Under the pieces are notes generated by a model. The model was not told the DNA's origin. It ran no database searches and saw only the letters and a list, made by a program, of their open reading frames with translations. A stretch of DNA of 62,399 nucleotides, counting the filler, from Collodictyon triciliatum (Eukaryota): assembly GCA_043381765.1 (NCBI GenBank). It is 3 parts of 3 records of this genome, joined end to end, with 100 filler letters (N's around TTAATTAATTAA, not from the genome) between each part and the next. Parts side by side here need not be neighbours in the genome. Positions count along the whole stretch, not along the records: positions 1 to 28,514 come from JBHJMP010000975.1; 2 more parts are not named here. One strand, 5' to 3'. Position 1 is the stretch's first letter, and each line of letters starts with the position of its first letter. This document shows positions 12,965 to 60,060 of this stretch, piece after piece. Made by a program: the position numbers and the translations under genes.

Positions 12965-13903
12965 TCAATACTTGACGGCTTTGAAGTGCTTAGAGAAGAG
13001 GTGCTCCTCGGATGTTATGGGAGGATACTTGGGAGCCTCGCCTTCCTCGGAGACGATGCATTCGACCAGGGTGTCCGGGTTTGGATTGTGGAAGAAGGCG
13101 ATGGACTGGCGGCGTGTGTCCACACCCAAGTCCTGCGGCGGATTGACAACGCGATGCATGGTAGACTTCCAGCGGTCGTTTGTCCAGCGGGCCATCAGAT
13201 CGCCAAGATTGACGATGAACGAGTTCGGGATGCTGGGCACGTTCTGCCAGGAGCCGTCCTTGTTCATGACTTGCAGGCCGCCCGGGGCGTCGTCAGTCAG
13301 CAGGATGGTCAGGCTGCCGTAGTCAGTATGGGCCGAGGCACGCAGCTGGCCGGGCTCTGGAGCGTGGTCCTGGTGAGGGTAGTTAAGGATGCGGATGGCC
13401 GACTGGTTGCGGTCCAGCTTGTCCTCGAACCAGTCTTCGGGCAGCTTCAGGGCCAGCGCAAAGATGCGCATGAGCTGGGCGGAGAGCTTCTCCATGGTGC
13501 GGAAGTAGGTGGTCACGTGTTCCTTGAAGCCCTCCGGCTGGTCCGGCCATGGGATGTCGGTTGCGTTGATGCAGATGCTGTACGTCTCTTTCCAGTCGAA
13601 AATGGCGGGGGCATTGGCGTCCAAGGTGCGGGACAAGACCTCCTGCTGTACATAGCCGTACGTGAAGTCCTTCTTCAGCCCAACCTTTTGTTTCTCGCTC
13701 AAGGGTAGATCAAAGAAGCGCCGAGAGATGTCCCATATCCCGTCGATTATGTCCCTGGGCACATTGTGCCCCGTGATCGCCAGGAACCCGACCTTCTCGC
13801 ATGCAAAAAGCATCTCAGAAACAACCTTGTTGCGCTCTGCACTTCCTGCAGGCTGGTCGAACCAGTTTGTGAGGTCAATGACTGGGACGCTAGCTTCTGC
13901 CAT
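12965..13903 (-). CDS. 2-oxoglutarate/Fe(II)-dependent oxygenase, IPNS/DIOX family; uninterrupted CDS
   Basis: VPVIDL...ACEKVGFLAITGHNV (DIOX_N), HTDYG (HxD), STMHRV (distal His) and RQSIAFF (RxS). First ATG is at 13903; the ORF-track start at 13909 is TTG. Confidence 0.93.
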   Translation of the reverse strand: MAEASVPVIDLTNWFDQPAGSAERNKVVSEMLFACEKVGFLAITGHNVPRDIIDGIWDISRRFFDLPLSEKQKVGLKKDFTYGYVQQEVLSRTLDANAPAIFDWKETYSICINATDIPWPDQPEGFKEHVTTYFRTMEKLSAQLMRIFALALKLPEDWFEDKLDRNQSAIRILNYPHQDHAPEPGQLRASAHTDYGSLTILLTDDAPGGLQVMNKDGSWQNVPSIPNSFIVNLGDLMARWTNDRWKSTMHRVVNPPQDLGVDTRRQSIAFFHNPNPDTLVECIVSEEGEAPKYPPITSEEHLFSKHFKAVKY

Positions 13904-14945
13904 GGCCAACCTCTAGAAGTAAGATTCCTTTTATTGGTGATGTTAAGCTATGTTAGTTATTATGTGCTTGCATGGTGCTGCGCGCCTGTCCGTCAGCGCA
14001 ATACTGGACCGGTAGATTCAACAACAGGACCAGGCAGATGCAATATTCCGTGTGAATGAATCAGTGACAGGCACCGATGTTCTGCTTGAGAATTTTCTCA
14101 TCGCTGGCGAATGATAGTCTCTTAATGCCTGTGAAATCGAATAATGCCGTGGTGGCAATAGACGTCGGATTGTGCGTGTCCGTATAAATACCTCTCGGAA
14201 GGTGCAATTACAAATCTAAATCTGGAAAATCTCTCAGCATGTCGCCACCTAGCAGCCTTAAGTTTGCTGCTCTGGCTCCGATTGAGGCGAATCGTTGGAG
14301 TTGCGCAATACTGCGATGGATTAATTAATGATTCAAGGTGGTGTGAACAAGATGAAAAAATAAATAAATAATGCCAACCCTTTTAACTACTGGTGGTGTC
14401 CTTTGTTCCATAAGATGCCTTGACAAAACCTTCGCCGGGTGTCCCAAACATGTTGTTTAATGGCGCAGCCCATCCCATCGCCTTCAAAGGCCACCAGACC
14501 GAATAGGCGGCCGAATGAGGTTCAGGCCTTCACAAGAAGATTCTGGCTGGCTCGGCAACCAGAGACCCGAAAACTTCTTTTTGTGGCAAATTTACCTTTA
14601 GACCACAATACAGGCACCGAAATCTCAATGCACCCACTACACTCTCACTACAGCTTAGCGATATAGCACTATGTGTTTGGTCGGGTTGATTTGGTGTCTT
14701 CGATTACCCCATTGAGAATCCAATTCTGGGTGGAGGGCTGTGCGTGGTCTTTACAAGATTTCCATCAATCCGCACATATTCAAGCAATGTTGGGATAATG
14801 CATCTTACAATAGTTTAAGACAACGCGCTTCTGGTACCTGGTACTCATATGATCATAATGATCAATTGATATGGAATATAATGTTGCACATATTTACTAG
14901 AAGGGGTATAACCTCGAAAGATTGGTAAACCTGGCGCGCTAGTAT

Positions 14946-17205
14946 CTAAGGTCTCGCCAATTTTTTCGCAAAGATCGTGTAGTGGTGAGGGCTGCCAGGA
15001 AAGACCTTACAGCCTTCTTTTTTTTCTTTTTTTTTTAGAGGAATGTACATGCATTTTTGAAGGGTTAAATGAACTTTCTCGAGTGTATTATTAGTGCTGT
15101 TATAGTCCCTTGTCAAGAATACAATTTGTTTGCTTTCTGAGCGATTGCATTCCTTACATATGAGACATCTATACAACTTTTTTGAATTTCCTTTCAGTTT
15201 CATATAACCAGTTCTTTTTCGCAGTTGCAGCACATCTTGGAGGTTCTAAATTCATATACACTCCCTGTTTCAAAACGTTTGGATAGTATTTTTCGTAATC
15301 CCCTTCCGTTTGTTGGCATAAAATGTTTCATCAGACATTTTCTGCTCCAGCCTCCATACACCAGTACAACATCCTTGCCAAATGTCTTTTCGTTTCGGTC
15401 CATAAACAATTCTTCACTTCTTTTTGTATTAACATACTGTCTCCATCTCATCTTTCGAAAAGTTACGTGTTCATAAAATCTGGATAGTTCTACTGGTATC
15501 TTGATTTCATAGACACACATTTTCGAAATTATTTATAATCGACCGTGCACGAATTATGTTTACTCAGTTCTGTCTCTAAATCGATTAAAGATGCTCTTGA
15601 TGTCTCAAACTGCTTATTCCCTTCAAAAGTCATATGACCAAAAGAAACAGCACTTTGTAAACATGTTGCCATGAATATCTCTGAAGCATCGTATTTTTCT
15701 TTTTTCTCGCGCAAGAGTATTGTGTAATTTTTAAGAGATTTGCTATCATGTCTTGTTTGGTGTGCCGTGTAACGTAATTTCTTACCTGTCCCATCCACCA
15801 TATAAACCAAATTAAACTTACCTGCATCCACTCCAAATATTATTTTTGTCGCTAATAAAGATAACTGCTCTTCGGAAAGTTCATCTATATAAACATATTC
15901 TTGGGGTTTTTTTTGGATTTATTTGGATTTTGAATTTGAAATACCTTTGTTTTTAAATAATAATGACACCGTCAAGTTGTCTGTTTGTATCATGTATTTA
16001 AGATTCTAGTCTCTTTGATGAAAGACCCTCTTCTTCATTTCAAAGAAGTCATCCCATAGGGTCTCTTTGCATCCTGATATATTCTTCAGTAATGATGTTT
16101 TCTCATATGATACTAATAGAGCTATCAAACATGAGTATCTAGAGCAATATGACATGGTATATTGTTAGTTCTTTTAGAGATTAGTTGAAGCAGTTTGGTT
16201 CCAATGTCTTAAAAAATGCGATTCATGTAAATCAGACACGGAATGTACTTATTTGAATCGACTTTGGCGTCATAATCCATACCATTTACAATATCGCTGG
16301 GATGATATGATGCAAATGCATGCCTCGCATTCTTCGCTACTCTGACCGCAAGCGGAGAGAGATGTGGGAATGTGTCGTGCGATATCTCCCACAGCATATC
16401 CAACCCCTGCTACCCACGCAACCAATCAACCAGTTGGGTCGCCCACCTGACCAACTCACTATCACTGACTTCTTTCCAGTGCTAGCCTCTCCACGGTAGT
16501 GTCTTCCCCTACTCGCGTTTGCTCTCTCCCATGCGCTCCCATCCCACCCCTTTGTATGGCATAACCTCGCTAAACTTTGAATCGAATAAAGGAAAAAAAA
16601 ATGATGCATTTGCATTTAATCCATTCTTTGTATTGTTCCGGTATGTCGAGTTTCTTGAAGATGGCTTTTTTTTTAACTTTCGTAACTCTGCCTTTTTAAT
16701 AGCTTCCGTAATATTCTCATCTTTAGGAACTGTTTGATTTATAAGGCGCAGTAACTTCTTTACAAAATGTTCATTAATGTTATTATGATAAGCTGTTAAC
16801 ATTTGATTCGCCAAGTACGGTAATGCATGAGACAGTTTAACCAACAGAAAGCGTTCTTCTCGGGTCAAAAGGAATAGAAAATCATTGAGATAAAAAGTCA
16901 TCATGTCATCTCTCAAACCTGGATGCTTTAGCTGGCGGGTCTATCTTGTGGAACTTTTCCGACTATCTTTAAGGTGAACAAAAAAACTTTCCATCGATTG
17001 TTGGGAATTGTTGTGATTTCAGTATGTACCATCTTGCAAACAGATAAGTGTCGGTAACCAAATTATTACACAATTAAACCGTATCGTTGATTTTGTCATA
17101 GTCATCCGTATTCTTTACAATAGACTTTAGAGGTGTTTTCACATTTCGATAGCCTGGTTTTACAGACTTTAAATTCTCAAACTCAAGATGGTTTCTTTTC
17201 TTCAT
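14946..17205 (-). pseudogene. Fanzor1 (eukaryotic/viral TnpB-like RNA-guided nuclease), disrupted by stops, frameshifts and a LINE insertion
   Basis: N-terminal VKTPLKSIVK...TYLFARWYIL, AYHNNINEHF, YIPCLIYMN, RTNNIPCHIALDT and MIQTD..VSLLF. RuvC-I IFGVDAGK, FRKMRWRQYVN, VYGGWS..MPTNGRGLR, YEFRTSKMCCNC, CKEC and RuvC-III TRDYNS. This fits the Fanzor D...TS-xx-C4 zinc finger...RD signature. Clear homology ends at about 15075. Confidence 0.9.
16307..16615 (+). mobile_element. 5'-truncated LINE family A copy (16322-16600) with A-tail and 15-bp TSD, inserted in the Fanzor ORF
   Basis: TSDs ATGATGCAAATGCAT (16307-16321) and ATGATGCATTTGCAT (16601-16615). Tail CTTTGAATCGAATAAAGGAAAAAAAA. Fanzor homology resumes on both sides. 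Confidence 0.88.
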
Positions 17206-17252
17206 CTGAAAGTCTTTGTTTTACCTTTTTCCTTTAGAAAACTACCGAGTTT

Positions 17253-17260
17253 TCAATTTT
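17253..17260 (-). promoter_or_regulatory. AAAATTGA motif (mimivirus-type early promoter consensus) upstream of the Fanzor ATG
   Basis: Exact octamer about 47 nt upstream of ATG 17205. Further AAATTGA copies at 17274-17280 and 17308-17314. The AT-rich context lowers significance. Confidence 0.4.
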
Positions 17261-19168
17261 TATAAAACTTTAGTCAATTTGTCAATCTTTTAAAAAAATG
17301 CACAAAATCAATTTAGGTAAAATGAAGCATCTGCCGATACTCTCAAAATGTGCGTATTGTGGAAAACAAACACACAAAGTTTTTTTATAAGTGATTTGAG
17401 ACAAAACGCTGAGAGCCGATTCTGCGAGTTCGAAAGGGCAGCCGTATAGCTTTTGCGACTGAAAGTCAACATATCGGCCCCAAACAACATGATTACCGCC
17501 GCAAGTGTGGATAGTGTGCTTTTTTGAAATGCATGTTTGGTGGCAGGTTTATAGGGTGGGTTCTGTCTAGGCCAAGGCAAGGCTTTTTTGTAATGTTTTA
17601 ATTATAATGAAAATATTACTAAATGCAAAATAAAATATAAATTGGTTGCAGGAATAGAATGAGATTACAAAGTATTTTTAGCATTATTATAAAAACTAAT
17701 CACACTATTATATTATTCAGGTTCTTTCTTGGATTCATCAAAGCTCCTGCTTTCGCCAATCCAGATTTAATTTGATGGTTGTCTGTGCAATAAACTGCTA
17801 TAAATCGGTACACTTTCGTTGTATGAAAAAGTATTGTCCTTGAAAGGGATAAAACCAAGTTCGTCACAACCTTTGTAATGAAGTTTACTCATTTACAGGC
17901 TGGATGAGACCGAAAGAAAAAAAAGAAAAGGACAAGAAAAAGAAAAAAGAAAAAAGAAAAAAGAAAAAGAAAAAAGAAAAAGAAAAAGAAAAAAGAAAAA
18001 GAAAAAAGAAAAAGAAAAAGAAAAAGAAAAAGAAAAAAGAGAAATGAGAAATGAATCAGAGCAACTAATACTGAACACTTATCTTGCTGCCCGTGGGTCG
18101 ATGGCTAGGGTCCGAGGTCTTTTTTTATTCCCCATTATTACTAATATTAATATTATTCGTTTCAAAGAGCCCGCTCTGCCATATTAGTAGTTTGTTGTAC
18201 TCACAGGTCGGTGGCAGCCGGCGTCTTGATCGTCGGTGTGTCTCGATGCATAGCCTGTGTTGTGAATGATGTGGTCAAGTGACCTTTTCGCTCTCTGGGT
18301 TGGCTGCGTCGGCCTTCTTGTTTTGCATATGATCAGTGGGCATTCCACAGGGCAGGGGTGTGGTAGGCAGTCTCGTCCTTCTCGGGTGCGCTCTTTCCGA
18401 TCGCTTGCGTGTTTTTTTTTTTTTCGGCTTCAGGATGTAGCGGGTTGGGAGAAGAAGGAAAGAACACCGGCATAATGATATTATTTTCAAGAGTATGTGT
18501 CTTATTCTCTCAGCGTTTATTATTTCTCAGCAAGGAGACTTTTTCTTATTCATGTTTTCTTTTATTATTGCTCCTCTCAAATCTCTGTCTCAGTGTGACC
18601 ACATTTGTTCAAGTTGTATTGTTTATGACAGATCAGGAGATCCTGGCTCGTATTTGAGCATATCACTCTTAACAATATAAATACAAAAAACTAAAAATTT
18701 AGTATGTATAATAGAATATAAAAAATAAATTAAGGATAAAAATACAAAGTATAATAATTTCCACATATATAAAACTCAATACGCCACAAGTTTCGCCTTA
18801 AACTAATGACCCATCCAGAAGAAGTTATTTGACATGAAATAACTGGAATCATTCGAATGTATTGATGCCTTATGTAGCAATTTTGTGACATGGAGAAAAA
18901 CATAGTGAAATTATTGATAAAGGCACATGCTCGCTTGACGCATCAATTGATTTTGTCCATCTTTCTGTATTCGCATGTCTTTTTCCCAAACGAAAGAAAA
19001 AAAAAGCCGAAGCGGAAGCCAACAAAGAGAAAAGGTAAAACCAAGGAGCCGAAGAGAGAGATGCTCAGAGATGAAGAGAGAAGCAGAGAAGTGTCCCTGA
19101 TTCTTTGAGACGAAAGGGAAGAAAGTGGCAAGTCCGGTAACCCACTTTGTCCTCCTCTGCGCTGTAGG

Positions 19169-22149: not shown

Positions 22150-22869
22150 ACAAAATAAACAAGATTTCAAACCAGATTGCTCCGTGTTATGCTTTGTTGC
22201 TGTAATCATGGTTGATGATTCTGCTCAGCACATCGGTAACAGTCAAATTTAATCACATGACCGGGCTCTGACCCCTCCAAGAGAGAAAAGAGAAAAAAAA
22301 AAAGGTATTTTTGAGGAAAATTGGAGAGTTAGAAGGTTTAGTGCCGCATTCTCTTTTGCCTGAAATCATCACGCATCGCGGCAGTTGTAAGTTATTCCTG
22401 TCTGAATATCCACTGACTTCTGAAGAGGGGAATCCGAGCCCTTTGTGTCCTTATCCCCATCGTGTCGACCTCCTGCGCACCCCGCTTCGAATCAGCTCGC
22501 ATCTCCCCAGGAATCGCACGCGCGCTCAGGATTTCGTTGTTTTCCAGTGCTCAGATACAGAAAAGAGAGCTTGCACCCTTTGATAATGTCCAGAATCGTG
22601 CGCCACATTTGTATATGATGCTCGAACGAAATGCCATTCTATTCCTTTAGGCTGGTGTGGCGCTGCTTTCCACCAAAGGCAGACCCGAGCGGATGTCTGC
22701 GAGAATGATCGTCCACAAATCAACATCAACAAGCGCGAGCAATTGTGAATGAGCGCAAGTCGTAGTGAATCTGCGAAAGACTTGGAAGAGAGCCGATCAT
22801 CGGGACCGTCGGAAAGATCAGCCCGAGAGAAGCCAGCTTTATCTTTCTTCCTTTTTTTTCTTCTCTCTT

Positions 22870-22971
<102 letters not shown>

Positions 22972-23320
22972 ACTGTAAAGAGCCAGAACACCAGTCATAC
23001 AACCAAGGCCTTTAAAATAGTTTGCTCCGCTCTCTGCTTAATTGCTTAAAGCATGAATTGTTATGTAGTTACCTGAAAAAAAAAGAAAGTAAAATAAAAA
23101 AGATTGACTCTGCTTCACTCCTCGTGCAAGTTTGTAAACGTAACACGGAAGAAATACACACACTTTCTTGCTGAGGGCTACTATTGTTCCAGACGATTCC
23201 GGAGTCGAAAACTCCCGCCACTTCTTGGCGAGGACATCACTTGCACTTGACTGTCTGAATCTGCCAAAGGAACTGTTTTCATAACTAAATAAACTCTGCA
23301 AACTGAAACAGGAACGAGAG

Positions 23321-26951: not shown

Positions 26952-27467
26952 GTTTAGAGACTGATTGACTCCACAGTGGGTAGGGGGAAACTTTGGAAAA
27001 ATGAATGCACTGCGAATGAAGACTTGGACAAGGTTCCTTTTTTTTAAAAAAAAAAAAATTAATAATTATTTGGTCGGCAGACGCAGGAAGAAATTAAATA
27101 AATCTGCGCTCGCACGTTGCAAGAGCAGATACGAATCGATTGGGCTCGATCGTGAGAAAAAGAGAAAAAAGAGAAAAACAGAAAAGAGAAAAATAGAAAA
27201 ACAGAAAAACAGAAAAACAGAAAAACAGAAAAACAGAAAAACAGAAAAACAGAAAAACAGAAAAACAGAAAAACAGGAAAGAGAAAAACAGAAAAAGAAA
27301 GAAAAAGAGAAAAACAGAGAAACAGAGAAACAGAAAAACGGAAAAGAGAGAGAAAAAAAGCTGAGGATAATGTTCATGCGCCTGAGATCGTGAAAGGGAG
27401 AAACGCAGGGCAGCCCTTTGATTTTCCCAGAATAGTGCAAAGAAAAAAAGCATGCCTTATTTGACCT

Positions 27468-27677: not shown

Positions 27678-27693
27678 ATCAAATAATAAGATA

Positions 27694-28109
27694 TTGGCAT
27701 TCTGGGCAGTGATGCGAGGCCATTTGCTATGGACTATGTGGATAGCACGCATATACTACACAAAGCAAGATTCAACAACCAGCCACCCATTCCTGATAAT
27801 AAGCTGAATGACATCATTCAAATCTCTTTCCTCAATAGCTTTCTTCGCCACCTGCACGTTCTCTACTACTCAAACCCTGTGAGAAGAGACATGTGGAAAG
27901 GGGCTGAGAAAGAGATTAAACTTCCCCTTGTCTCTCTCATGCAAGCACAAGACCCAGGCTACAGGCCAAACTGCAGGATGCAATTGCTGATTACCGACTA
28001 CTTCCCCGCCACCCGGCCACCAAGTAGCGTTCATGCAAACAATGGCTAGCGAACCAGAGCTGAAATCCCCACCACGCCGCACAAAATTGAAAGGAAGAAT
28101 GAAAAAAAA
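27694..28109 (+). mobile_element. 3' fragment of LINE family B with A-tail
   Basis: FWAVMRGHLLWTMWIAR and SFLNSFLRHLHVLYYSNPVRR. Ends AAAATTGAAAGGAAGAATG-A(n). Confidence 0.85.
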
Positions 28110-28882: not shown

Positions 28883-31800
28883 AGGCTTGTCTGGGATGGT
28901 GTGCGCAGGTGGAGCGTCTCTTGGCTGAGACCGACCAGGTCCGACAGGAAAGCGAAGATACCGGCCCCAATGCAGAGTTGCAGTATTGGAAGAGTCGCAT
29001 GGCAAAGTTCAATAGCATCATCGACCAGCTCAAGTCCAGAGAATGCAAGATTGTCATAGGTGTTCTGACAGCGGCAAAGTCGCCCATCTTGCAACAATGG
29101 AGGACCCTTAATAATAGAATCACAGACGCTGGAAATGAAGCCAAGGTTTCTTTCTGTCCTATTTTTTTTTTTTTTTATTCGTCGACATCATCGCTCCATT
29201 TTTTTTTTTTTGGTTTGCTGTTGCTACTTGACAACCTCCTTCCTTCATCCATCATAAATTTCTCCTCATCCTTTTCCATTCTGACTATGAGCTTCTGTGT
29301 CTCTGTTCACATTCATTCATTCATGTTGGGTTAGACTGAAATCGTTCAAATACCGAAAAGTAGAGGTATCTCATTAAATTATCATCTCCTCGTAGGACAA
29401 CGTCAAGTATTTGTATACTCTGGAGAAATTCACTGAACCTCTTTACAAGAGCGACCCTGTTCAAATGCTCGATGCTGTCCCGGGACTTATCTCAGCTATT
29501 CAAATGATGCAGAGGTACACTTTTTTTTTTTAAAAAATTCTTAGTATTGTATAGCCTTCCTTATTTCAATCAATCATATACCATGCACGCTTACATACAT
29601 AATATATATAAACAAACGCGGCTTTTATTCTCACTTAATCTCATATACTCTAAATTTGTAGTCCAATAATGTTGTTCTGTGATACATTATCTTTCAATCT
29701 TTCTCTCCAATTTTCGATTTTTTTTTTCGCTGCTTTATCTACATGATTCGCAAGAGTAATAACCAAGTACTACTCCTCCTTTTCTCTCCTTTTTCTCTCT
29801 TTTTTTCTCAGTTGAATATAACCAAAAGGAAGCTAATCACTCTTATTATCCAATTCTCATTCCACAGCATCGCCCGTTACTACAATACATCTGAGCGCTT
29901 GACTGCCCTCTTTGTCAAAATCACCAATCAAATGATCAAGTGCTGCAAGAGCTACGTAATGTCTGGAGGCGAACTATGGAGACAGGAGCACGGATTACTC
30001 GCCCAACGCCTCCAACAATGTATCGACCTGAATGAATGTTATCAAGAACATTACCGCCAAGCTAAGGTCTTCTTATTTCTTTCATTGGATATTTTTTCTT
30101 CGATACAAATGAACACTTTTAGCTTAATCAAAATATGAAGATTGTGACTTATGTTTCTATACAATATATTCTTATAGCCTACTCTATTCCTTTCACATTT
30201 AACTCAAAGTCTTGTAACCCCTTTAACTTTTGAACTATTATTCCCTCATACGTATGCCCAATGTTTCGTACTATATGTATGATCATCATTTATCTATTAA
30301 TTGAGAATGATTCAGAATGAAACCTTACGTGGATACCTACTTTTTCCTTTCCACCTCCCTATCTTTATGGTATGAAGGCCGCCAATCAAGCAAGTCGAGC
30401 CAATCGCCACTTTGATGTCAGCGAGATGTACATCTTTGGAAAATTCGACCTTTTCTGCAAGCGCATCCAGAAGCTCATCGACTTCTTCTCCACCATCGAC
30501 CAATTTTCGAAATTATCTTATGCAACTAAAATTGATGGGATGGAAGGAATCATCAAAAAATTTAACCTGATCTTGCAGACTTTTCAGACGCGCCCCTACG
30601 ATCTCCTTGACCACAGAAATCCAGTTTGCTTATGATTATACTCATTATCTTCACTTCAATCGAATCACTAGTTCCTTTCCTACATTATACAAATAGTGAA
30701 ATCATACAAAAGTCACTCTACTTATATCTAATTTACGTAAAACATATTCTTCCATATCATATTTTGCAGTCCTTTTTAACTATTCTCACCTTAAATATGG
30801 AATTCTCTCAGGATTTCGATAATGACTACGTGAGCTTCTTGAAACAAATCACCGATTTGGAAGAAGAAATTCAACGCTTCATTAATGAATGCTTCTCAAA
30901 GATTACAAGCACGGAAGGTGCCCTTCAGCTTTTGAAGCAATTCCAAAGTGTCCTCCAGAGAGAGAACATGAAGGTGAAAAAATCCAAAAACACCACCAAC
31001 AACAANCCCCCCCCCCCCCCCCCCCCTAAACAATGAACTGAAGAGTAATCGCATTTGATAAAACTATTTTCAAAGAGTTTTATTGCTCATTTGAATTTCG
31101 TATCTCCCTTATTTATCAGATGAAAACGACCACAAGAAATAGCTAAATTCTATTTAATTTTCAGGCTGATTTAGAGCAGAAGTATCTACTCATCTTTACA
31201 AACTACGGACGTGACCTTAAATTGGTCAGCGAAACGTATGAAAAACACAAGGAGAATCCTCCAGTCCCTCGTAACACCACCCCTGTTGCTGGTGCAATTT
31301 GTAGGGATTTTGTTTTTGTTTTGTTAACAGTCCTCCTCCCCTTACAACATCAAATTCATTTTACATAGCAAGTTAATAATTGTTTTAAGCACCTGTTACT
31401 CCCTTCTTTGTACCTCATATGTCACCCATTTATTTCCCCCCAGCATGGTCTAGACAATTACTCAGACGCATTGAAACTCCTATGAAGCTCTTCCGTACTT
31501 TGCCTCAACTGATGGAAACTCCTGTTGGCTATTCTTGTTACTAATTGTGTTTTTGTGTGCTTGTGTTACCCCTGAATTTCCGATTTATGATGATATGTCA
31601 TTCAGATATTAATTTATAATGATTCGAACTTAGTCGGCTTATACATATTTTCGAGTAGGAGGCCAAAAGAATTATCAAGACGTATAACAAGTTAGCATCA
31701 GTACTGATATCATTTGAAACTCTGTGGCATGATGGATGGTGTAAATCATTAGCATCTGTCAAGGTAAGACTCCAATCTTCCTAACCAATCACACTTGGTC

Positions 31801-40800: not shown

Positions 40801-42379
40801 TTGCCAACGGCGACAGAATCCCAATGTCTTCAACCTTGAAGCTGATCTTTGAGGTGGAGAATCTGGACAATGCTTCTCCGGCCACTGTGTCCCGTGCTGG
40901 TATGATCTACATGAGCATCTCAGCTTTAGGTGAGCTTTTTTTTCTTCTCCTTTATTTTTTTTTAATCTGGGATGGTCTATCGACACGTCTCTTTGTCTCT
41001 ATCTACCTATGATTTTTTTTCATGCTTTAATGATTTCTCACAAGGCAAACAGTAAACTGATATACAACAGTATCCAAATTTATCCAACGACCCCCCAAGA
41101 GATTCTCATTTCACTTTTTTTTTTTTTTTTAACAAAAAAAAGGTTGGAAGCCTGTGCTTGATGCATGGCTGAAGAGAAGACCTGAACCCGAGGCTCAGGT
41201 ATTGAGGCAGCTGTTTTATCAGCACTGCGACACATTCCTGAAATTCATCTCGGAAAATTGCACAAGAGTCATGCCCGTGACTGATGTGATTCAGGTGCGC
41301 TCTATACATATCTCTTTTAAATGATCTCTTGTAGAATATTCCTGTAGCAAGTTGGTTTAACTGAGCGCAGCCAAATCGCATATTTTTCTCTCTCCCAATC
41401 ACAAACTTTTCATTTTTTTAAAATATTTTGTCAACAGGTGACGAACACTCTTCATCTCTTGAAGCAGTTGATTCCATCCCGTGAGGAGAATCAAGTTCCG
41501 ACCAACCAGCACTTAGAGAGACTATTTGTATTCTGCACAAGCTGGTGCTTCGGAGGGTTACTCGAATCTGAGGACAGAGTCAAATATATGGAGGTTCTAA
41601 AATCAAGTGGCCTTAGCATCCCCGACATGACCGGCCAGTCAACCGATGGAGGCCTGCCAGAAACAGTTTTTGAATACTATGTCGATGAAAAAGGCCGGTG
41701 GAAAAACTGGACCACAAAGGTACATACGCCAAATAGAAACCATCTAAATACTGAAAATAAGTAAAAGGAAAAAATGGAAAAAGGTTGCAATTACCTTCTA
41801 TGTTGCATAACTTCTTTTAGAGCCATTTTTTCCCTTTATTCGATTCAAAGTTTTTAGAGCCATCTTATATCATTATTTCCCTCAAATATATGAAGTTGAC
41901 AATCCTATTTAATAGGTCGAGGAATATGTTTATCCAACAACATTTACACCTGATTTTTCCAACCTGCTGGTACCCACTGGTAAGAGTTTCAGATAAAGAT
42001 TCTTTTCCATCAAAATGTAGCAATGTATTGACCAACAGCATTCACGTCCAATATTACTTAGTTGACAGCGTCCGCATGGAATTTTTGATCGCTTGCTACT
42101 ACAAACAAAGCCGCGGTGTTCTTCTTGTCGGTTCTAGCGGAACAGCAAAGACGGTCACAATCAAAGGATTCCTGTCAAAGTTTGACACAGAACAAGAGCT
42201 CTCCAAGTGCATCAATCTGTCTTCAGCCACCACACCCGAGCTCCTCCAGAGAACCATCGAAGGATTGGTCGACAAGCGTATCGGATCAACATATGGGCCA
42301 GCCGGAGGAAAGCGTATGGGATGCTTTATCGATGATATCAGCATGCCGGAAATCAACGAGTGGGGCGATCAGGTGCCTA

Positions 42380-45400: not shown

Positions 45401-48400
45401 TCAAAAGCTGCTTGAGGTTACATTCCAGCCCGTTAATTATACCCTCCACTTTATTGTTGATGTGTCTATACTTTTGCAATTACCCATGTAGTTCAATATT
45501 TCCTTTGGTATGGATGTCTATGAAATATTTGCGAACGTGAACCAATACTATCCCTAATTTTCAAGGCTGGAGACGGAGTTAAAAAAATGAAGATAGAGCT
45601 GATGCAGAAAGAAAAAGATCTTGCTAAAGCCCAGGAGAAGGCTGCGGCATTCTTGGTGGAGATTACTGAAAGCACGAAAATTGCCGAGAAAAATAAGGCT
45701 TCTGTATTGAAAGTGCGCGAACAACTTGCCGAACAAGCTGGTCGCATTGATGCCGAGAAGCAACAGGCCGAGAGGAGACTGGAAGCTGCGGCACCATTGC
45801 TCGCCGATGCCGAACAGGTATCGCGTATACACATTCTCAATTTGAACACCACTGTAAATCGGACTTTGGCGTGGAGTATGCCGTTTCCTATTCACCTGCA
45901 CTCCGTTGTCTATATGAAGAAAGAATGGACGAGTAATTTCTATAACAACTTTTAGGCTCTAAATCAAATCAAAGCATCCGATATTGCGGCCGTCAAGAAG
46001 CTTCCGAAGCCACCAAATCTGGTGAAGCGTATTATGGATGGCGTGCTTGCCCTTCGGCGATTCCCGATGGACCCGTTCAAGTTGGACACTGAAATCACTG
46101 AAAAGATGCAGGTATTGTCATCGTGGAGCAAAGCCATGAAAATGATGGGTGACTCAACCTTCCTCAAGCAACTCCAGGAGTTCGATAGGGTTCGTTTATT
46201 TTTCCCCAACCCGTCCTTCCCTTCCTTCTTATCATCTTTCTCTCGCATGGGTGTTCCTTGTTGCTCCTACGCCTACCCCACCCAACGTCCAACATTTTCG
46301 CGAGACAATACAAGGAAACGTCTTACATGTATACCAATTTACTAAGCAGTATTTGCCAGAAAATATCTGAATTACACTACATCGCTAGGATGCTATCAAT
46401 GACGAGACATGCGAACTCCTTGAACCCTATCTTAGGATGGAGGACTTTAATCGTGAAGATGCGGAGAAATCGGCTGGTGCTGTGTCTGGTCTTTGTGCTT
46501 GGGTTCGTGCCATGCATTCATACCACTTCATCGCAGCCGAAGTCGAACCCATGCGAGTTGCTGTACACCTGGTATTGTATTATTTTTTTTTTGACAACTA
46601 ATCGAGCAGCGATATCCCCTCCTCGATTCTCCTCTACAAAATATCTCAAAGTCACTCCACCGGATGAATCATGCGATTTATGTATTTAATCTACGCGCTT
46701 TTCCTGTAGCGAAATACATCCATCATCCACAAAAGGTATTTAACCACATATTCGCTAGGCTGAAATTAGTTTGAACGCGGCAAAGAAAGAATTGCAAAAG
46801 GCGCAAAGCGAGCTGGACGAGAAACAGAAGGCACTTGATGTGATGAAGGCGAAGTATGATGTCGCCATGAGAGAAAAACAGGCCATGATAGATGAGGCTG
46901 ATAACTGCAAGCGGAGGTAAGCAGCTGTGAAATAATAAGCGAGCGAATCCCACCACAATTTCACCATTTAATTGTCCAAATGCTCGTACTGATATATATC
47001 TCTTTCATATCTCAGTATCACAGCGGCTACTGCTTTGATTGGTGCTCTCAGTGGGGAGAAGGAAAGATGGACTAAGCAGAGCAAAGAGTTTGAAGAGACT
47101 ATCAACAGGCTTGTCGGTGATGTTGCCGTCGCCGCGGCTTTCATGTCTTACAGTGGACCATTTAATCAAGAGTTCCGATCACGTTTGGCAGATGCTTGGT
47201 TCGACGTGGGTGTTCTATTTCATCATGTCCACTATGAATCTGATATATCCCCGCCATAGCGACAAACATTACAACAGCCCGGTATCTTTTGCCAGTTTAC
47301 ATATAAATTCAAAAACATTTAGGATTTGCGCAAAGGAAGAATTCCGTTCACGGAATCTTTGAATGTCATCAAATTCCTCGTGCATGAAAACACAGTCGGT
47401 GAATGGAATCTACAGGGACTCCCTACTGACGATCTTTCCACACAGAATGGTATCATCGTCACTAGTGCATCTCGCTATCCACTATTGATCGACCCACAAG
47501 GGTTTGTGAACCAATCACGTTTAATTTAATTTTATTTGTGCCGTGCTATCAATTACATATTCCATTAAATTATGCCTCTTACAATTTTATAAATTAAATA
47601 TTTTTCCTTATATCATACAAACTGATTCATCTCTCTAACAGGCAAGGCAAAGAATGGATTAAAAGGAGAGAGGCCAGCCGCAACCTCAAAATCACTACTC
47701 TGTTGGACAAAAACTTCCGCCTACAAATCGAAGAGTGCCTATCATTCGGTATACCCATTCTCATCGAGGATGTCGAAGAAGAACTCGACCCAGTCATCGA
47801 CAATGTCCTGGAGAAGAATTACATTAAAACTGGTCGCTCTACAAAGGTTAAACTTGGAGATCGTGAGGTCGATGTGTCTCCTGAATTCTACGTGAGTTTA
47901 TGATATGTTTATTTAGTATTGCATTAATTGATACATTACACATGGGAACGCTTTCATGAAACAGAGAACGGACAGTTCATTGTCGCTGATTACCACTATC
48001 ATTATAGCTTTATATAACGACAAAATTGGCCAACCCAAGATTCTCTCCTGAAGTAGCTGCAAAGACGGTTATCATCGATTTCACAGTGACATTAAAGGTC
48101 CTCATTATCTTTTTATATTTTTTTTGTATAAAATGGAAGCCTCCTCTATAAATTCCTTGAGTCAGTGAATCAGTTGTCTTTTTTTTGTTTTGTTTTGTTT
48201 TGTTTTGTTTTGTTTTGTTTTGTTTTGTTTTGTTTTGTTTTGTTTTGTTTTGTTTTGTTTTGTTTTGTTTTGTTTTGTTTTGTTGGCTTATATCACATTC
48301 ACATGTCAGGGCTTGGAGGACCAGCTGCTGGGACTTGTGATTTTGAAGGAAAAGGCTGAGCTCGAAAAGCAGAGACTTGGTCTATTGGAGGAAGTGAACA

Positions 48401-51400: not shown

Positions 51401-52933
51401 TATTGTATTCGACATATCTTCTTTTTTTCTTCAAAATGTGTTACTAACATGCTGAAACTACCTCCCATTATATAGACACTATTTTGAATGTGCAGCCGAA
51501 GGATTCTTCCGGAAGCGGAGGCGAGAGTCGTGAGTCTCAGGTGCTTGCAATGGCACAGGATATTCTTTTGAAGCTGCCCGCGGACTACGTCAAGGTATAA
51601 TCTGGCAGATGCGCTGTGCTTATGTGTCCTGATTTTGTTTTATAAATTTTTTTTTTTTCGTTGAGACAAGTCTCATAGCTACTGACTGTACATGCCACTC
51701 GCATAATAATATTAATGATAATAATAAATTGTCGCCCTCGATGCCCATCCACCTACAACCAACCACTTGTCATCAGCAATCAAATAATATGAGATACAAT
51801 CATTAGAGCAAGGTCAAGGAGGACATCAAACGCCTTGGAGGTCAGACGCCTCTGAACGTCTTCTTAAGCCATGAGGTGCATCGCATCCAAGTAGCCCTCA
51901 GCACAATTCGCCGCACACTGGGCGACCTGCAACTCGCGATTGCAGGCACCATCGTGATGAACGAAAACCTGATTGGCATCCTCAACTCGTTGTACGATGC
52001 CCGTGTCCCTCCGCTGTGGGAGAAGCTTACGTGGTCTTCGTCCACACTGGGTTTCTGGAACGAGGACTTGAGCCTTCGCTGCAAACAATACACAAAGTGG
52101 CTCAAGGACGGACAGCCTCTTGTCTTCTGGCTGACGGGCTTCTACAATCCCCAGGTAAACACACATCCACACACGGCATAGAGCACGATGCACAGCCCAG
52201 CGACTCACTCTTTCTTTCTTCTGCGGCCCAGGGCTTCCTCACGTCGATGCGTCAGGAAATTGCGCGCGACCGCAAGTGGGCGCTAGACACGGTCAAGATC
52301 AACACGGAAGTGACCAACAAGGAAGAGCGAGACGTGAAGCAGGCTCCGCCAGAGGGTGTCTTTATCCAGGGCCTTTTCATCGAAGGAGCAAGGTACGGCA
52401 CTAATCGCACACCAGTGTCCATCTATGTCTGTTTATGTCTAGTGGCTTGTTGTGATTGTTGTGATTGTTGTGATTGTTGTGAAATCATACGTTAAATATT
52501 CGAAGGGATGGCAGTAACAAGCACATGATACCTTATCCTATTCTAACATCGCCCTCTCTCTCTTTCTCATTCACTCACTCACTCACTCACTCACTCACTC
52601 ACTCACTCACTCACTCACTCACTCACTCACTCACTCACTCACTCACTCACTCACTCACTCACTCACTCACGCGGCATCACCACGCGCAGCTGGGACAAGT
52701 ACAAGTGCCAGCTGATCGAGTCCAAGCCCAAGATTCTGCACACGTCCATGCCCGTCATCCACGTGACGGCATCCACAAACCCGCCCGCTTCGGCCCACGT
52801 CTACAACTGCCCCGTCTACCGCACCCCACAGAGAACCGACCGCAACTACATCTTCGACGTCCAACTCAACACGGACGACTCCGCTGCGCGGTGGACCATG
52901 CGTGGCGTCGCGCTCCTCTGCTCCAAAGTCTAG
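28883..52933 (+). CDS. Axonemal outer-arm dynein heavy chain, gamma/DNAH5-DNAH8 class; 5' end missing at gap; many tens of introns
   Basis: [17 protein letters not shown] and [24 protein letters not shown]1 [33 protein letters not shown]2 GASGAGKT, P3 GSSGTAKT, P4 GVGGSGRQS, stalk, and C-terminal [13 protein letters not shown]. Confidence 0.95.
33129..33296 (+). other. U12-type GT-AG intron in the dynein gene
   Basis: Donor GTATCCAA; CCTTAAC at 33279-33285, 11 nt from the TAG end. Removal gives PLFNVSIELSVPN. Confidence 0.75.
35319..35482 (+). other. Probable U12-type GT-AG intron in the dynein gene
   Basis: Donor GTATCCAA; TTCTTTGAC at 35463-35471, 11 nt from the CAG end. Removal gives LLSSLYTLY. 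Confidence 0.6.
39353..39494 (+). other. GC-AG intron in the dynein gene
   Basis: Only AG|GCAATG ... TTAG|A restores the conserved [14 protein letters not shown]. Confidence 0.8.
41815..41863 (-). mobile_element. Ultra-short LINE family A 3'-end insertion with ~12-bp TSD in a dynein intron
   Basis: TTTTAGAGCCAT (41815-41826 and 41852-41863) flanks TTTTTCCCTTTATTCGATTCAAAGT. Confidence 0.85.
44682..44806 (+). other. U12-type intron with AT donor, best-fit AT-AA termini
   Basis: Donor ATATCCTG; branch TTCCATAAC at 44789-44797. Ending at AA (44806) restores [17 protein letters not shown]. Confidence 0.75.
45005..45050 (+). repeat. 19-bp direct repeat flanking TAAAAAAA (possible tail-only retroinsertion)
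   Basis: ATCAGCTTCAATACATATA at 45005-45023 and 45032-45050. Confidence 0.6.
52570..52670. repeat. (ACTC)n microsatellite in the last dynein intron
   Basis: Direct reading. Confidence 0.95.
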
Positions 52934-57138: not shown

Positions 57139-57167
<29 letters not shown>

Positions 57168-57169
<2 letters not shown>

Positions 57170-57375
57170 TAGGTTTGTGTCGTAAGACATCTGCCACGGC
57201 ATAGCCAACCCTGCCACCCACACAGCCAATCAACTATTTGGGCCGCCCACCCGACCAACTCGCTATCACTGATTTCTTTCTAGTGTTAGCCTCTTCACAG
57301 TAGCGCCTTCTCCTGCTAGCGTTTGCTCTCTCCCATGAGCACCTATCTCGCCCCTTCGTATGGCAGAAGCTTTTG
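57168..57375 (+). mobile_element. Diverged 3' fragment of LINE family A
   Basis: Matches 16360-16560 (CCAATCAAC, CTATCACTGATTTCTTTCTAGTG, GTTTGCTCTCTCCCATG). Confidence 0.8.
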
Positions 57376-58330: not shown

Positions 58331-58407
<77 letters not shown>

Positions 58408-59983
58408 TTGTAAGATTTACAACACGAACCATTTTTATTATCATGAGCTACAGCAGCTGAATCGAAAAATTACAATCACGCAGGCGTTAAGGTTTATTCC
58501 ATCGGCAAGGACGATTACAGCGAAGCGTTCTCTGATTTGCAAAAGTCTAGTTTTCAGAAAGAGGTGATGGATGCACACTTTCAAGGCACCCACATCGACT
58601 TTGACTTTGAGGATTTTGTAATCAACTCTACCTACCTGTGGCATGGAGAGGTTGTCCCGTACGGATGTCCGATCGAAAAAGTCGGAGATGGTACGTATAT
58701 AAATATATTAGGGCTCCAATTTATTATGACTTTTTCCCATTAAATCCTTAATATTACTATATATTTTGGCAGCAAGAAACGATTACACTTCCTCTTTTTT
58801 TTTTTAAAAAAAAAAAAAAAACATGCCCATACAGGTAATCGTGACAGGAACTGTTTGCATGCTTACAACGGATATGATGGGGGCGACTATCTATGTCTGA
58901 ATCCCTCGAGTTGCAATCCTCTTTGTGCTCTTGACTTAATCCTGGATGGTGCTCCTGGCACGGAATATTGCACTTGCATTTGCGTGGACTACAGTGAGTG
59001 TAATGATGTAAGCCTTTCATAAAATCATTACAATTTGAATCTTTTACTCACTTCATATAACTCTTAAATAAGCATTGAAGTTTTTCTTTGGATAACTGTT
59101 TGGTAGATCTTGTCAACTATTTTATGTGCCCATCATTAATAAATTTTAAATATAGTAAGCCATACTTTTTTCTATGTTATATCGAATAGTTGATTGGAAA
59201 TGGAGTGTGTGATGATAAATGCAATGTGGCTCCAGCGAACTATGACGGTGGTGACTGCTGTTTAGACCCTGCCCTTGGGAAGTGCTTCGACCATCGTCGA
59301 AAACTATTCCAAAGAAGTCAGCATTTGATATACTCATCATAGATTCCATTATGTACCTGGAATGTCTCAATAAAATTACGATAACTCAAGAAGCTGCTTT
59401 ATATAGGCTTTGCTGATATCGTGGAGCTGAGGGAGCATGCGAATTCCAACTTCTCTACATCGCTATACATTTACGTTGGAACAACAGAGAGTGATTTTTA
59501 TCATTTAATATGTCATAAAATCCTTTTAAAAAAAGTGACGCCTAACATAGATGACATATATATATCATATAGGTACGTCTCTACTTGGAATTTCTGTTTT
59601 CCCTTGGACAATTGATTTCAGTCAATCTTCCGAAGGAGGGCTTCTGATGGAGAAATCGGTTTGGGGAGATGGCTATGATTCTACCTTCCACGGAACGGTC
59701 GCTGTTCATGAAGTAAAAACTAATATACTTTTTTTCCAACTTATTATTTTTAGGAGCTTAATTGAACTAATTACACATCAATGCGTTCTGAATGCTGTTC
59801 TTTCCTTCCTTCAACTTAAGGAGATAATACTTGCTCTGCATTCAAAAAACTTACAATCCCCAAAATATGACGGTGTTAGGCAGGTCATTCCTTTGGACTT
59901 TGGCATACATTCCATGGTGTTACCGAGCTCCAAGATGGTAATGAGAAAGATTGCGTGTTATGAGCATGAATATACACTAATTT

Positions 59984-60060
<77 letters not shown>

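What the first reader, a model, noticed from the sequence alone, without database searches (positions are those of the whole stretch)
14946..17205. Full-length but decayed Fanzor1 RNA-guided nuclease gene with no partner transposase in view
Seen: fragments in several minus-strand frames concatenate into a complete Fanzor1-like protein, from the N-terminal KTPLKSI region to RuvC-III. All three acidic catalytic positions remain (GVDAG, EFRTS next to the C4 zinc finger, TRDYN). The gene has in-frame stops, frameshifts and a LINE insertion. Established: Fanzors are TnpB-derived omega-RNA-guided DNA nucleases of eukaryotic transposons and giant viruses. Inference: intact sister copies may exist in this genome and define a Fanzor system from a poorly sampled protist. 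No transposase or clear TIR was found nearby.
Basis: partly seen in the sequence, partly recalled or inferred. Interest (0 to 1): 0.8.

Follow-up and report, generated by a model that had tools for sequence, protein, structure and literature searches.

The report
Dead Fanzor1 nuclease gene copy
This is a broken, no longer functional copy of a Fanzor1 RNA-guided DNA-cutting gene that sits in a repeated mobile element of a flagellated eukaryote; it is a fairly ordinary relic of a large known family whose nearest intact relatives are in giant viruses.

Summary
On the minus strand, 17205 down to 14946 is colinear with residues 1-630 of an intact 648-aa metagenomic protein, P0002 (621 codons, 58.3% identity). 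P0002 matches the solved Fanzor1 proteins GtFz1, PpFz1 and SpuFz1 (E 2e-28 to 4e-23).

The copy is dead. It carries 5 in-frame stops, 7 frameshifts and a 293-nt insertion at 16322-16614. The insertion is the 3' tail of a LINE, with poly(A) and a 15-bp target-site duplication.

The catalytic Asp, alternative Glu and Asp and all four zinc-finger Cys remain. In all, 30 of 34 family-invariant columns are kept.

No transposase, TIR or omega-RNA was detected.

Contigs of three public runs show that about 14.9-18.4 kb is a repeated unit. Copies there lack the LINE and carry an extra base at four of the window's frameshift sites. Sister copies therefore exist, but none was shown to be intact.

The family is very large (3147 clusters). 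Its nearest other relatives lie on giant-virus contigs, the closest of them beside DDE_3 transposases.

Verdict: new member of a known kind, modest interest.

The parts
14946..17205 (-). Fanzor1 pseudogene, from start codon 17205-17203 to stop 14948-14946. It has no introns and is broken by 5 stops, 7 frameshifts and one insertion.
   Evidence: colinear with P0002 residues 1-630, 58.3% identity over 621 codons; matches to solved Fanzor1 proteins.
15826..15828 (-). RuvC-I catalytic Asp codon (GVDAG). The neighbouring family-invariant Pro is changed to Ala.
   Evidence: column D364 kept, P365 changed
15251..15253 (-). Alternative RuvC-II Glu codon (EFRTS), next to the zinc finger. The canonical RuvC-II position 34 residues upstream holds the invariant Gly (codon starting at 15355).
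   Evidence: PMC10530073 passages
15105..15107 (-). RuvC-III catalytic Asp codon (TRDYN)
   Evidence: column D604 kept
15147..15232 (-). CxxC...CxxC zinc finger. All four Cys codons are kept (they start at 15232, 15223, 15158 and 15149).
16322..16600 (+). 5'-truncated 3' end of a LINE, inserted in antisense to the gene, with poly(A) at about 16590-16600
   Evidence: sequence; three other copies in the window at 78-84% identity; zf-RVT ORF in front of the copy at 12143-12369; contigs of runs X3 and X2 join across it
16307..16321 (.). Target-site duplication of the LINE insertion, first copy. The 15 nt agree with 16601-16615 at 13 of 15 positions.
   Evidence: read
16601..16615 (.). Target-site duplication of the LINE insertion, second copy
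   Evidence: read
17206..18410 (-). Upstream part of the same repeated unit. It has no recognisable ORF or domain. The far boundary is approximate.
   Evidence: contigs of X2 and X3 bridge 17205 into it; depth falls after about 18426; a loose end lies at 18408; no family or transposase match.
17790..18180 (.). A/G-rich microsatellite expansion private to this copy
   Evidence: low-complexity repeats; X3 contigs skip 17782-18079, 17787-18183 and 17797-18077
14890..14945 (-). 3' flank, where an omega-RNA scaffold and the element end would be expected. Nothing was detected. The end of the repeated unit falls somewhere in 14809-15009.
   Evidence: depth bins; no match to the model of the viral 3' RNA; z-score -0.22

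Best explanation
The stretch is a dead copy of an intronless Fanzor1 gene of about 650 aa. It lies in a repeated mobile unit of about 3.5 kb (roughly 14.9-18.4 kb of the window) in the nuclear genome of a flagellated eukaryote.

Active family members would work as described for Fanzor1. The protein binds an omega-RNA transcribed from the 3' end of its own element. It recognises a short TAM next to a DNA target that pairs with the guide. It cuts with one RuvC site, made of the RuvC-I Asp, a relocated Glu beside the zinc finger, and the RuvC-III Asp. This step is inferred from solved relatives and from the literature, not shown here.

This copy cannot make the protein. After insertion it accumulated 5 stops and 7 single-base frame changes. 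It was then hit by a 5'-truncated LINE, and it gained a microsatellite expansion upstream.

It carries no transposase of its own, so it would have depended on a transposase in trans or on copying by homology (inferred). Its lineage is sister to Fanzor1 genes on giant-virus contigs, which points to exchange between giant viruses and hosts. The direction of that exchange is unknown.
For: Identity as Fanzor1:
- Colinear full-length match to P0002.
- P0002 matches GtFz1 at 2.1e-28, PpFz1 at 2.7e-24 and SpuFz1 at 3.7e-23. These are the only 3 credible hits of the 5 listed; the other 2 are myoglobins at E 0.38-0.62.
- The window's own 110-aa fragment hits the same three proteins.
- 30 of 34 family-invariant columns are kept, including the three acidic residues and four Cys.
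- Gly at the canonical RuvC-II place with a Glu 34 residues further on fits the rearranged site described in PMC10530073.

Decay:
- The lesions are listed.
- The LINE identity rests.

Repeated unit:
- 829 contigs of run X3, 122 of X2 and 41 of X5 lie on 13000-19000 at 80% likeness or more.
- X3 depth is confined to about 14.8-18.6 kb.
- Long pieces differ from the window by about 10-14%.
- Contigs join 16302 to 16621 without the LINE (3 in X3, 2 in X2).
- Single bases are added at 15206, 15492, 16133 and 16301, which are four of the window's seven frameshift sites.
- At 16211 nearly all depth reads C instead of A (X3 246.1 of 259.7; X2 13.7 of 13.7). On the gene's strand this removes the stop that replaces invariant E236.

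Relationship to viral genes:
- 288 relatives were found on IMG/VR contigs and 80 were kept. Of the 81 fetched loci, 78 hold complete ORFs of 555-640 aa.
- In the trees, window+P0002+P0107 form one clade (support 100). It is sister (support 91; 96 in FastTree) to the clade holding viral loci L002, L003 and L005.
Against: - No TIR, TSD or exact element ends could be defined. The ends rest on 200-nt depth bins and one loose end.
- No complete sister copy was seen, so 'family with intact members' is not shown.
- The nature of run X3 (labelled RNA by a guess) and its relation to the window's source are unknown. Its near-identical contigs may be the same locus.
- No omega-RNA was detected. The covariance model of the viral relatives' 3' RNA gives no hit at the gene's 3' end: 16 hits, all at E>2, and none within 14850-15100. 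The 3' flank folds no better than shuffles, z -0.22.
- Pfam gave no family above its cut-off for the six window fragments or for P0002.
- The sister relation to the viral clade has support of only 91 in the better tree, on a long stem of 0.85.
Confidence: 0.88

Rival explanations
1. The gene is a remnant of an endogenised giant virus (a piece of integrated Nucleocytoviricota DNA), not a host transposable element.
For: Apart from the small P0002 group, all close relatives that could be placed lie on IMG/VR viral contigs, many of them named GVMAG. The gene has no introns. The neighbouring 2OG-Fe(II) oxygenase gene is intronless and richer in G+C than its surroundings, 0.495.
Against: The repeated unit is only about 3.5 kb and its depth falls off sharply on both sides in run X3. 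The flanks are ordinary cellular DNA, including a dynein heavy-chain gene with introns. The oxygenase region is not part of the repeat (X3 depth there is 0). No other viral gene was noticed among the window's ORFs, but these were not searched systematically.
Confidence: 0.07
2. It is a processed (retro-copied) pseudogene, made by LINE machinery from a Fanzor mRNA.
For: The gene has no introns. There is an A-rich tract at 15014-15036 near its 3' end. LINEs are active in this genome.
Against: The A-rich tract lies inside the reading frame's tail, 66 nt before the stop. The repeated unit continues about 1.2 kb upstream of the ATG in other copies. The intact relatives are also single ORFs, so absence of introns is the family's normal state.
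Confidence: 0.03
3. The match is to a different TnpB-derived group (Fanzor2 or a prokaryotic TnpB from contamination), not to Fanzor1.
For: Pfam assigns nothing above its cut-off. The only hint is the Cas12f1-like TNB domain at E 0.11 for P0002.
Against: All three nuclease hits among solved structures are named Fanzor 1. The N-terminal 400 residues also align to them. The locus is embedded in eukaryotic DNA, with a LINE inserted in it.
Confidence: 0.02

Closest known systems
Fanzor1 RNA-guided endonucleases with solved structures: Guillardia theta GtFz1 (9cer), Parasitella parasitica PpFz1 (9cf0), Spizellomyces punctatus SpuFz1 (8gkh)
   Same: Full-length sequence similarity of the intact relative P0002 (E 2e-28 to 4e-23) and of the window's RuvC-II/zinc-finger fragment. 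The order of RuvC-I Asp, relocated Glu next to a CxxC...CxxC finger, and RuvC-III Asp is the same. The lack of a transposase and of inverted repeats is also reported for the GtFz1 locus (PMC10432273, passages).
   Different: The window's gene is a pseudogene. The family is shorter, about 620-650 aa. The solved chains are 1032-1259 residues, but these include a maltose-binding fusion partner, so their native sizes were not compared. No omega-RNA was found here.
Fanzor1-type genes on giant-virus contigs of IMG/VR (loci L002-L081)
   Same: 37-47% protein identity to P0002 over nearly the whole length. They are single intact ORFs of 555-640 aa. They have the same invariant catalytic and zinc-finger columns. 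They are the sister group in the trees.
   Different: The viral genes carry a conserved structured 3' RNA that ends in GGTGTAA about 81 nt after the stop. Its structure has 34 pairs, 90.9% of cells paired, and 20 pairs with compensatory changes. The window does not match it. Flank DNA shows no similarity to the window. The closest viral loci (L002/L004, L003, L005) have a divergent DDE_3 transposase gene upstream, and the window has none.
TnpB of IS200/IS605 and IS607 (the prokaryotic ancestors)
   Same: One RuvC nuclease domain split by a zinc finger. The guide RNA is encoded at the 3' end of the element (established knowledge; PMC10530073 passages).
   Different: The canonical RuvC-II Glu is replaced by Gly and a Glu 34 residues downstream takes its place, as described for Fanzors and the 'TnpB2' subset. 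The host is eukaryotic, and there is no TnpA.

Membership tests
Fanzor1 | Significant sequence similarity to experimentally characterised Fanzor1 proteins over REC and RuvC regions | tested here: met
   P0002 against GtFz1 2.1e-28, PpFz1 2.7e-24 and SpuFz1 3.7e-23, with matched stretches covering residues 4-575; the window fragment hits the same three; the window is colinear with P0002.
Fanzor1 | RuvC triad with a rearranged RuvC-II: the canonical Glu is replaced by Gly or Pro, and an alternative conserved Glu lies downstream | tested here: met
   invariant G521, E555, D364 and D604 are all kept in the window. The feature is described in PMC10530073. Which column is the canonical RuvC-II place is my reading of the motif, not a structural superposition.
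Fanzor1 | Zinc finger (CxxC...CxxC) inserted between RuvC-II and RuvC-III | tested here: met
   C562, C565, C587 and C590 are invariant in the family and kept in the window.
Fanzor1 | Conserved structured omega-RNA overlapping or following the 3' end of the ORF | tested here: inconclusive
   Present in the viral relatives. Not detected in the window. No DNA of close sister copies was available to test conservation.
Fanzor1 | Intact ORF / active nuclease | tested here: not met
   5 stops, 7 frameshifts and a 293-nt insertion. This copy is a pseudogene of the family, not a working member.
Fanzor1 | Residence in a eukaryotic or eukaryotic-virus genome, within a mobile element | tested here: met
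   Eukaryotic context: a dynein heavy-chain gene in many exons and LINE fragments. Repeated unit. The element type is not determined, since no TIR, TSD or transposase was found.
Fanzor1 subfamilies 1a-1d (Jiang et al. 2023) | Placement in a labelled reference phylogeny | not testable with these tools
   No labelled reference sequences of the subfamilies were available. The paper's supplements are closed.

The most novel reading that the evidence does not exclude
The window's copy may be a relic of a still active, compact (about 650 aa), intronless Fanzor1 lineage. In this reading the lineage moved between giant viruses and this protist lineage, and now lives in the host genome as a multi-copy unit of about 3 kb. 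The unit would have a new kind of 1-kb non-coding 5' part, no transposase of its own, and an omega-RNA unlike that of its viral sisters. Intact copies elsewhere in the genome would then be working RNA-guided nucleases.
Probability: 0.25. Interest if true: 0.5.

Novelty: new member of a known kind. Interest (0 to 1): 0.3.

Why it matters
In itself it matters little. It is one dead copy of a family with thousands of members, and Fanzor loci without a transposase are already on record.

It has some value as a pointer. It marks a small host-resident branch (the window, P0002 and a few metagenomic fragments) that sits next to the large giant-virus radiation of Fanzor1-type genes. That makes it a concrete case for studying exchange of RNA-guided nucleases between giant viruses and their hosts.

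If the genome holds intact copies, they would be compact intronless Fanzor1 enzymes with an undescribed guide RNA.

Tried and rejected
Searches that found nothing or could not run:
- Whole-genome search for copies: no genome is held for this window.
- Pfam on the six window fragments and on P0002: nothing above the cut-offs.
- PF26935, which is precomputed on most relatives, is not in the local Pfam copy, so I cannot name it.
- Related DNA in metagenome contigs: only one distant locus, L001, at 21% identity. It was not useful for flanks.
- Viral contigs searched with P0002 alone: none. The family alignment A1 was needed.
- Rfam on the whole window: 0 matches.

Attempts to identify the organism:
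- A LINE ORF searched against the protein collection gave no hits.
- An exact look-up of the oxygenase found it is not in the collection.
- The organism remains unidentified.

Partner transposase in 17206-18700:
- ORF pieces gave nothing above the cut-offs.
- tblastn with the DDE_3 transposases and other upstream ORFs of viral loci L002-L006 gave nothing below E 0.08 anywhere in the window.

Element ends and flanks:
- TIRs: only low-complexity pairs were found. The best inverted match between the two presumed ends scores 16, against a shuffle mean of 17.8.
- Transfer of the viral flanks: nhmmer profiles of the viral 5' and 3' flanks gave no hit at the locus.
- The covariance model R1 of the viral 3' RNA gave no hit at the locus.
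- The fold of the window's 3' flank is not better than shuffles.

Sequencing runs:
- RNA run X1 covers only the oxygenase gene and 50-60 nt of the LINE tail. This says nothing about expression of the pseudogene.
- Shares of words in all five runs were small, 0.05-0.10. No habitat claim is made beyond noting that flanking host sequence appears in X5 and X1.

Full report
**What is in the sequence.** Stop-to-stop frames on the minus strand between 14946 and 17220 hold recognisable protein pieces in three frames. The 110-aa piece at 15200-15532 finds three metagenomic proteins at 66-70% identity. One of them, P0002, is an intact 648-aa protein (sequence). tblastn of P0002 against the whole window gives six colinear HSPs from 17205 to 15081, covering residues 1-612, and nothing else in the window below E 0.9.

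I wrote a frameshift-aware alignment. It runs from the ATG at 17205 to residue 630 of P0002, with 621 codons aligned and 362 identical (58.3%). The frame then continues to the stop at 14948-14946.

**How it is broken.**
- Five in-frame stops: 17076-17074, 16211-16209, 16008-16006, 15921-15919 and 15531-15529.
- Seven frame changes, each equivalent to one lost base: near 16992, 16936, 16691, 16297, 16133, 15492 and 15208.
- One 293-nt insertion at 16322-16614.

**The insertion.** It matches 12143-12369 (84%), 57160-57371 (83%) and 10406-10172 (78%) elsewhere in the window. The copy at 12143-12369 follows directly on an ORF with the zf-RVT domain of reverse transcriptases (E 1.4e-7). A second such ORF lies at 10792-11154. 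Read, the insert lies on the + strand and ends in a poly(A) run at about 16590-16600. It is flanked by a 15-nt duplication, 16307-16321 and 16601-16615, with 13 of 15 positions identical.

**What family it is.**
- P0002 matches three solved proteins named Fanzor 1: Guillardia theta (2.1e-28), Parasitella parasitica (2.7e-24) and Spizellomyces punctatus (3.7e-23). The aligned stretches run from the N-terminal region to the zinc finger. The two other rows listed are myoglobins at E 0.38-0.62, which I take as chance.
- The window's own fragment hits the same three.
- Pfam gives nothing above its cut-offs for the six fragments or for P0002.
- In an alignment of 42 family proteins, 34 columns are invariant. 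Among them are D364 (RuvC-I), G521, E555, D604 (RuvC-III) and four Cys.
- The window keeps 30 of the 34. The four changed are E236 and Y304 (both now stops), P365 (now Ala) and E391 (now Asp).
- Passages of Jiang et al. 2023 (PMC10530073, read) state that Fanzors replace the canonical RuvC-II glutamate by Pro or Gly and use a conserved glutamate about 45 residues further on. Here Gly521 and Glu555, 34 residues apart with the Glu directly before the first CxxC, fit that description.

**Size of the family.** A full scan of 1.84 billion representatives finds 3147 clusters at E<=0.001 and 537 at E<=1e-30. The word-based search lists 104 proteins. After P0002's own cluster, the best of these is 46% identical.

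**Sister copies.** No genome is held for the window. A search of public runs with 13000-19000 lists five runs with small shares, 0.05-0.10, and I laid four of them.

Run X3 (organism A, kind guessed) gives 829 contigs at 80% likeness or more. Of these, 118 are at least 99% alike, 182 are 95-99%, 284 are 90-95% and 245 are below 90%. Depth is zero from 13000 to 14808 and after 18628, and high in between. Metagenome runs X2 and X5 give 122 and 41 contigs over the same span.

What the contigs show:
- The long pieces listed differ from the window by roughly 10-14%, for example 39 of 345 letters.
- Contigs bridge the ATG into the upstream DNA (X2 records 10-13, X3 records 17-18).
- Contigs join 16302 to 16621 (3 contigs in X3, 2 in X2) or 16321 to 16621 without the LINE.
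- Contigs skip the microsatellite at about 17.79-18.18 kb.
- Part or most of the X3 depth has one added base at 15206 (89 of 173.7), 15492 (82.3 of 140.1), 16133 (96.3 of 119.6) and 16301 (108.6 of 166.6). These are four of the window's seven frameshift sites.
- At 16211 nearly all depth reads C for A. On the gene's strand this turns the stop at invariant column E236 into a Glu codon.

So diverged copies of a unit of about 3.5 kb exist, and they are less damaged at these places. The tables show only the best-supported rows (817 differences and 128 indels are not shown). Contigs give no complete copy, so an intact sister gene is not shown. X5 also holds flanking host DNA (13000-13155 without a difference), and RNA run X1 holds the neighbouring oxygenase gene.

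**Partner transposase, ends and guide RNA.**
- The 1.2 kb upstream of the ATG has no frame longer than 97 aa. It has no Pfam match above the cut-offs on either strand.
- The transposases and other upstream ORFs of the nearest viral loci find nothing in the window (best E 0.085, and that hit lies elsewhere).
- Inverted repeats around the locus are low-complexity only. The two presumed ends share nothing beyond chance.
- The 3' flank folds no better than shuffles (z -0.22).
- Passages of Saito et al. 2023 (PMC10432273) report that no transposase lies within the Spu-1 elements, and that the GtFz1, NlovFz2 and MmeFz2 loci lack inverted repeats and a clear transposase. The absence here is therefore not unusual.

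**Relatives in giant viruses.** With the family alignment, 288 stretches of IMG/VR encode relatives, and 80 loci were kept. Many contig names carry the label GVMAG, which I recall stands for giant-virus metagenome-assembled genomes. Of the 81 loci fetched in all, 78 hold complete ORFs of 555-640 aa, and three run off their contigs.

- Among the viral loci, DNA similarity stops about 85 nt after the stop codon and about 400-450 nt before the ATG.
- The 3' part forms a conserved structure ending in GGTGTAA. On 54 loci, 34 pairs have 90.9% of cells paired, against 44-53% when the partners are slid. Twenty pairs have compensatory changes, and 0 of 500 shuffles reach this. One helix is poorly aligned (54.9% paired).
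- A covariance model of this RNA (30 pairs) finds 16 weak hits in the window, all at E>2, and none at the gene's 3' end.
- nhmmer profiles of the viral flanks also find nothing at the locus.
- The viral loci closest to the window's group (L002/L004, L003, L005) have a divergent upstream gene with DDE_3 and HTH domains (E 1e-8 to 1.5e-15). This is an IS630/Tc1-mariner-type transposase, in line with the Mariner/Tc1 association of some Fanzor1 described in PMC10530073.

**Trees.** A FastTree of 78 rows places the window's reading with P0001, P0002, P0107 and P0003 (support 99). That group is sister (support 96) to a 29-row clade holding L002, L003 and L005. Here 65 of 78 viral ORFs had been dropped as more than 80% identical to a kept one, and P0016 as identical to L003. 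An IQ-TREE quick search on 34 rows that I chose gives the same picture. The window+P0002+P0107 clade has support 100 on a long stem of 0.85, and the sister relation has support 91. The root is set by distant family members only, so the direction of any transfer is open.

**Context and organism.** The window holds the following:
- LINE fragments.
- An intact intronless 2OG-Fe(II) oxygenase gene.
- Parts of an FAD-type oxidoreductase gene and of a lipoyl-protein gene.
- From about 28.8 to 53 kb, an outer-arm dynein heavy-chain gene in many short exons. Its best solved matches are a 'Dynein heavy chain, putative' chain and the flagellar outer-arm gamma chain.

This is a flagellated eukaryote. I could not identify it further.

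**Verdict.** The finding is real and correctly read. It is a dead Fanzor1 copy inside a repeated unit, with sister copies elsewhere, and it belongs to a very large known family. It is a new member of a known kind, and interest is modest. The one point of wider interest is its position as a host-resident branch beside the giant-virus radiation. The supplements of the two Fanzor papers, which list loci and subfamilies, were closed. They may already contain this organism or clade.

Noticed in passing
L002-L081 (IMG/VR loci), about 55 nt before to about 81 nt after the stop codon of the Fanzor ORF, e.g. L009:7776-7913: The giant-virus Fanzor1-type genes share a structured 3' RNA of about 136 nt that ends in GGTGTAA, where similarity between loci stops. 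It has six well-supported helices with many compensatory changes. On 54 loci, 90.9% of cells are paired and 20 of 34 pairs have changes on both sides. It is probably the omega-RNA scaffold and the right end of the element.
   Followed up: yes
L004:4645-5733 (-), L003:4676-5623 (-), L005:5130-5675 (-): The viral loci closest to the window's clade have a divergently oriented DDE_3 plus HTH transposase gene (IS630/Tc1-mariner type) directly upstream of the Fanzor gene.
   Followed up: partly
e.g. L009:5598-5891 (+), L016:5529-5864 (-): Most other viral loci have a conserved 400-450 nt stretch upstream of the Fanzor ATG. It holds either a Lys/Glu-rich ORF of 85-100 aa on the same strand (no Pfam match) or a C2H2 zinc-finger ORF of about 111 aa on the opposite strand (weak Pfam hint only).
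   Followed up: partly
window 12968-13903 (-): An intact intronless 312-aa 2OG-Fe(II) oxygenase gene (DIOX_N plus 2OG-FeII_Oxy) lies in a G+C-rich island (0.495, against about 0.36-0.40 around it). Contigs of a metatranscriptome run match it nearly exactly. Its origin (native or transferred) was not examined.
   Followed up: partly
window 10172-10406, 10792-11154, 11645-12369, 27690-28049, 57160-57371: There are several fragments of one LINE family, including ORF2 C-termini with zf-RVT and the shared 3' tail. The last 28 nt of the tail recur at 3321-3348, 9791-9818 and 41826-41853. The tail is by far the most abundant sequence in run X3 (depth about 2700).
   Followed up: partly
window about 28800-53100 (+): An outer-arm axonemal dynein heavy-chain gene is split into many short exons with short introns. 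One frame near 31030 translates with an X, so the window holds at least one undetermined base there.
   Followed up: no
window 8310-8720, 17900-18050, 22800-23000, 27100-27400, 48150-48300, 52550-52700, 58400-58500, 59980-60060: The window holds many long microsatellites and homopolymer runs, seen as repetitive translations such as CMYV, KQN and HSLT repeats and poly-K/F. The genome is rich in simple repeats.
   Followed up: no
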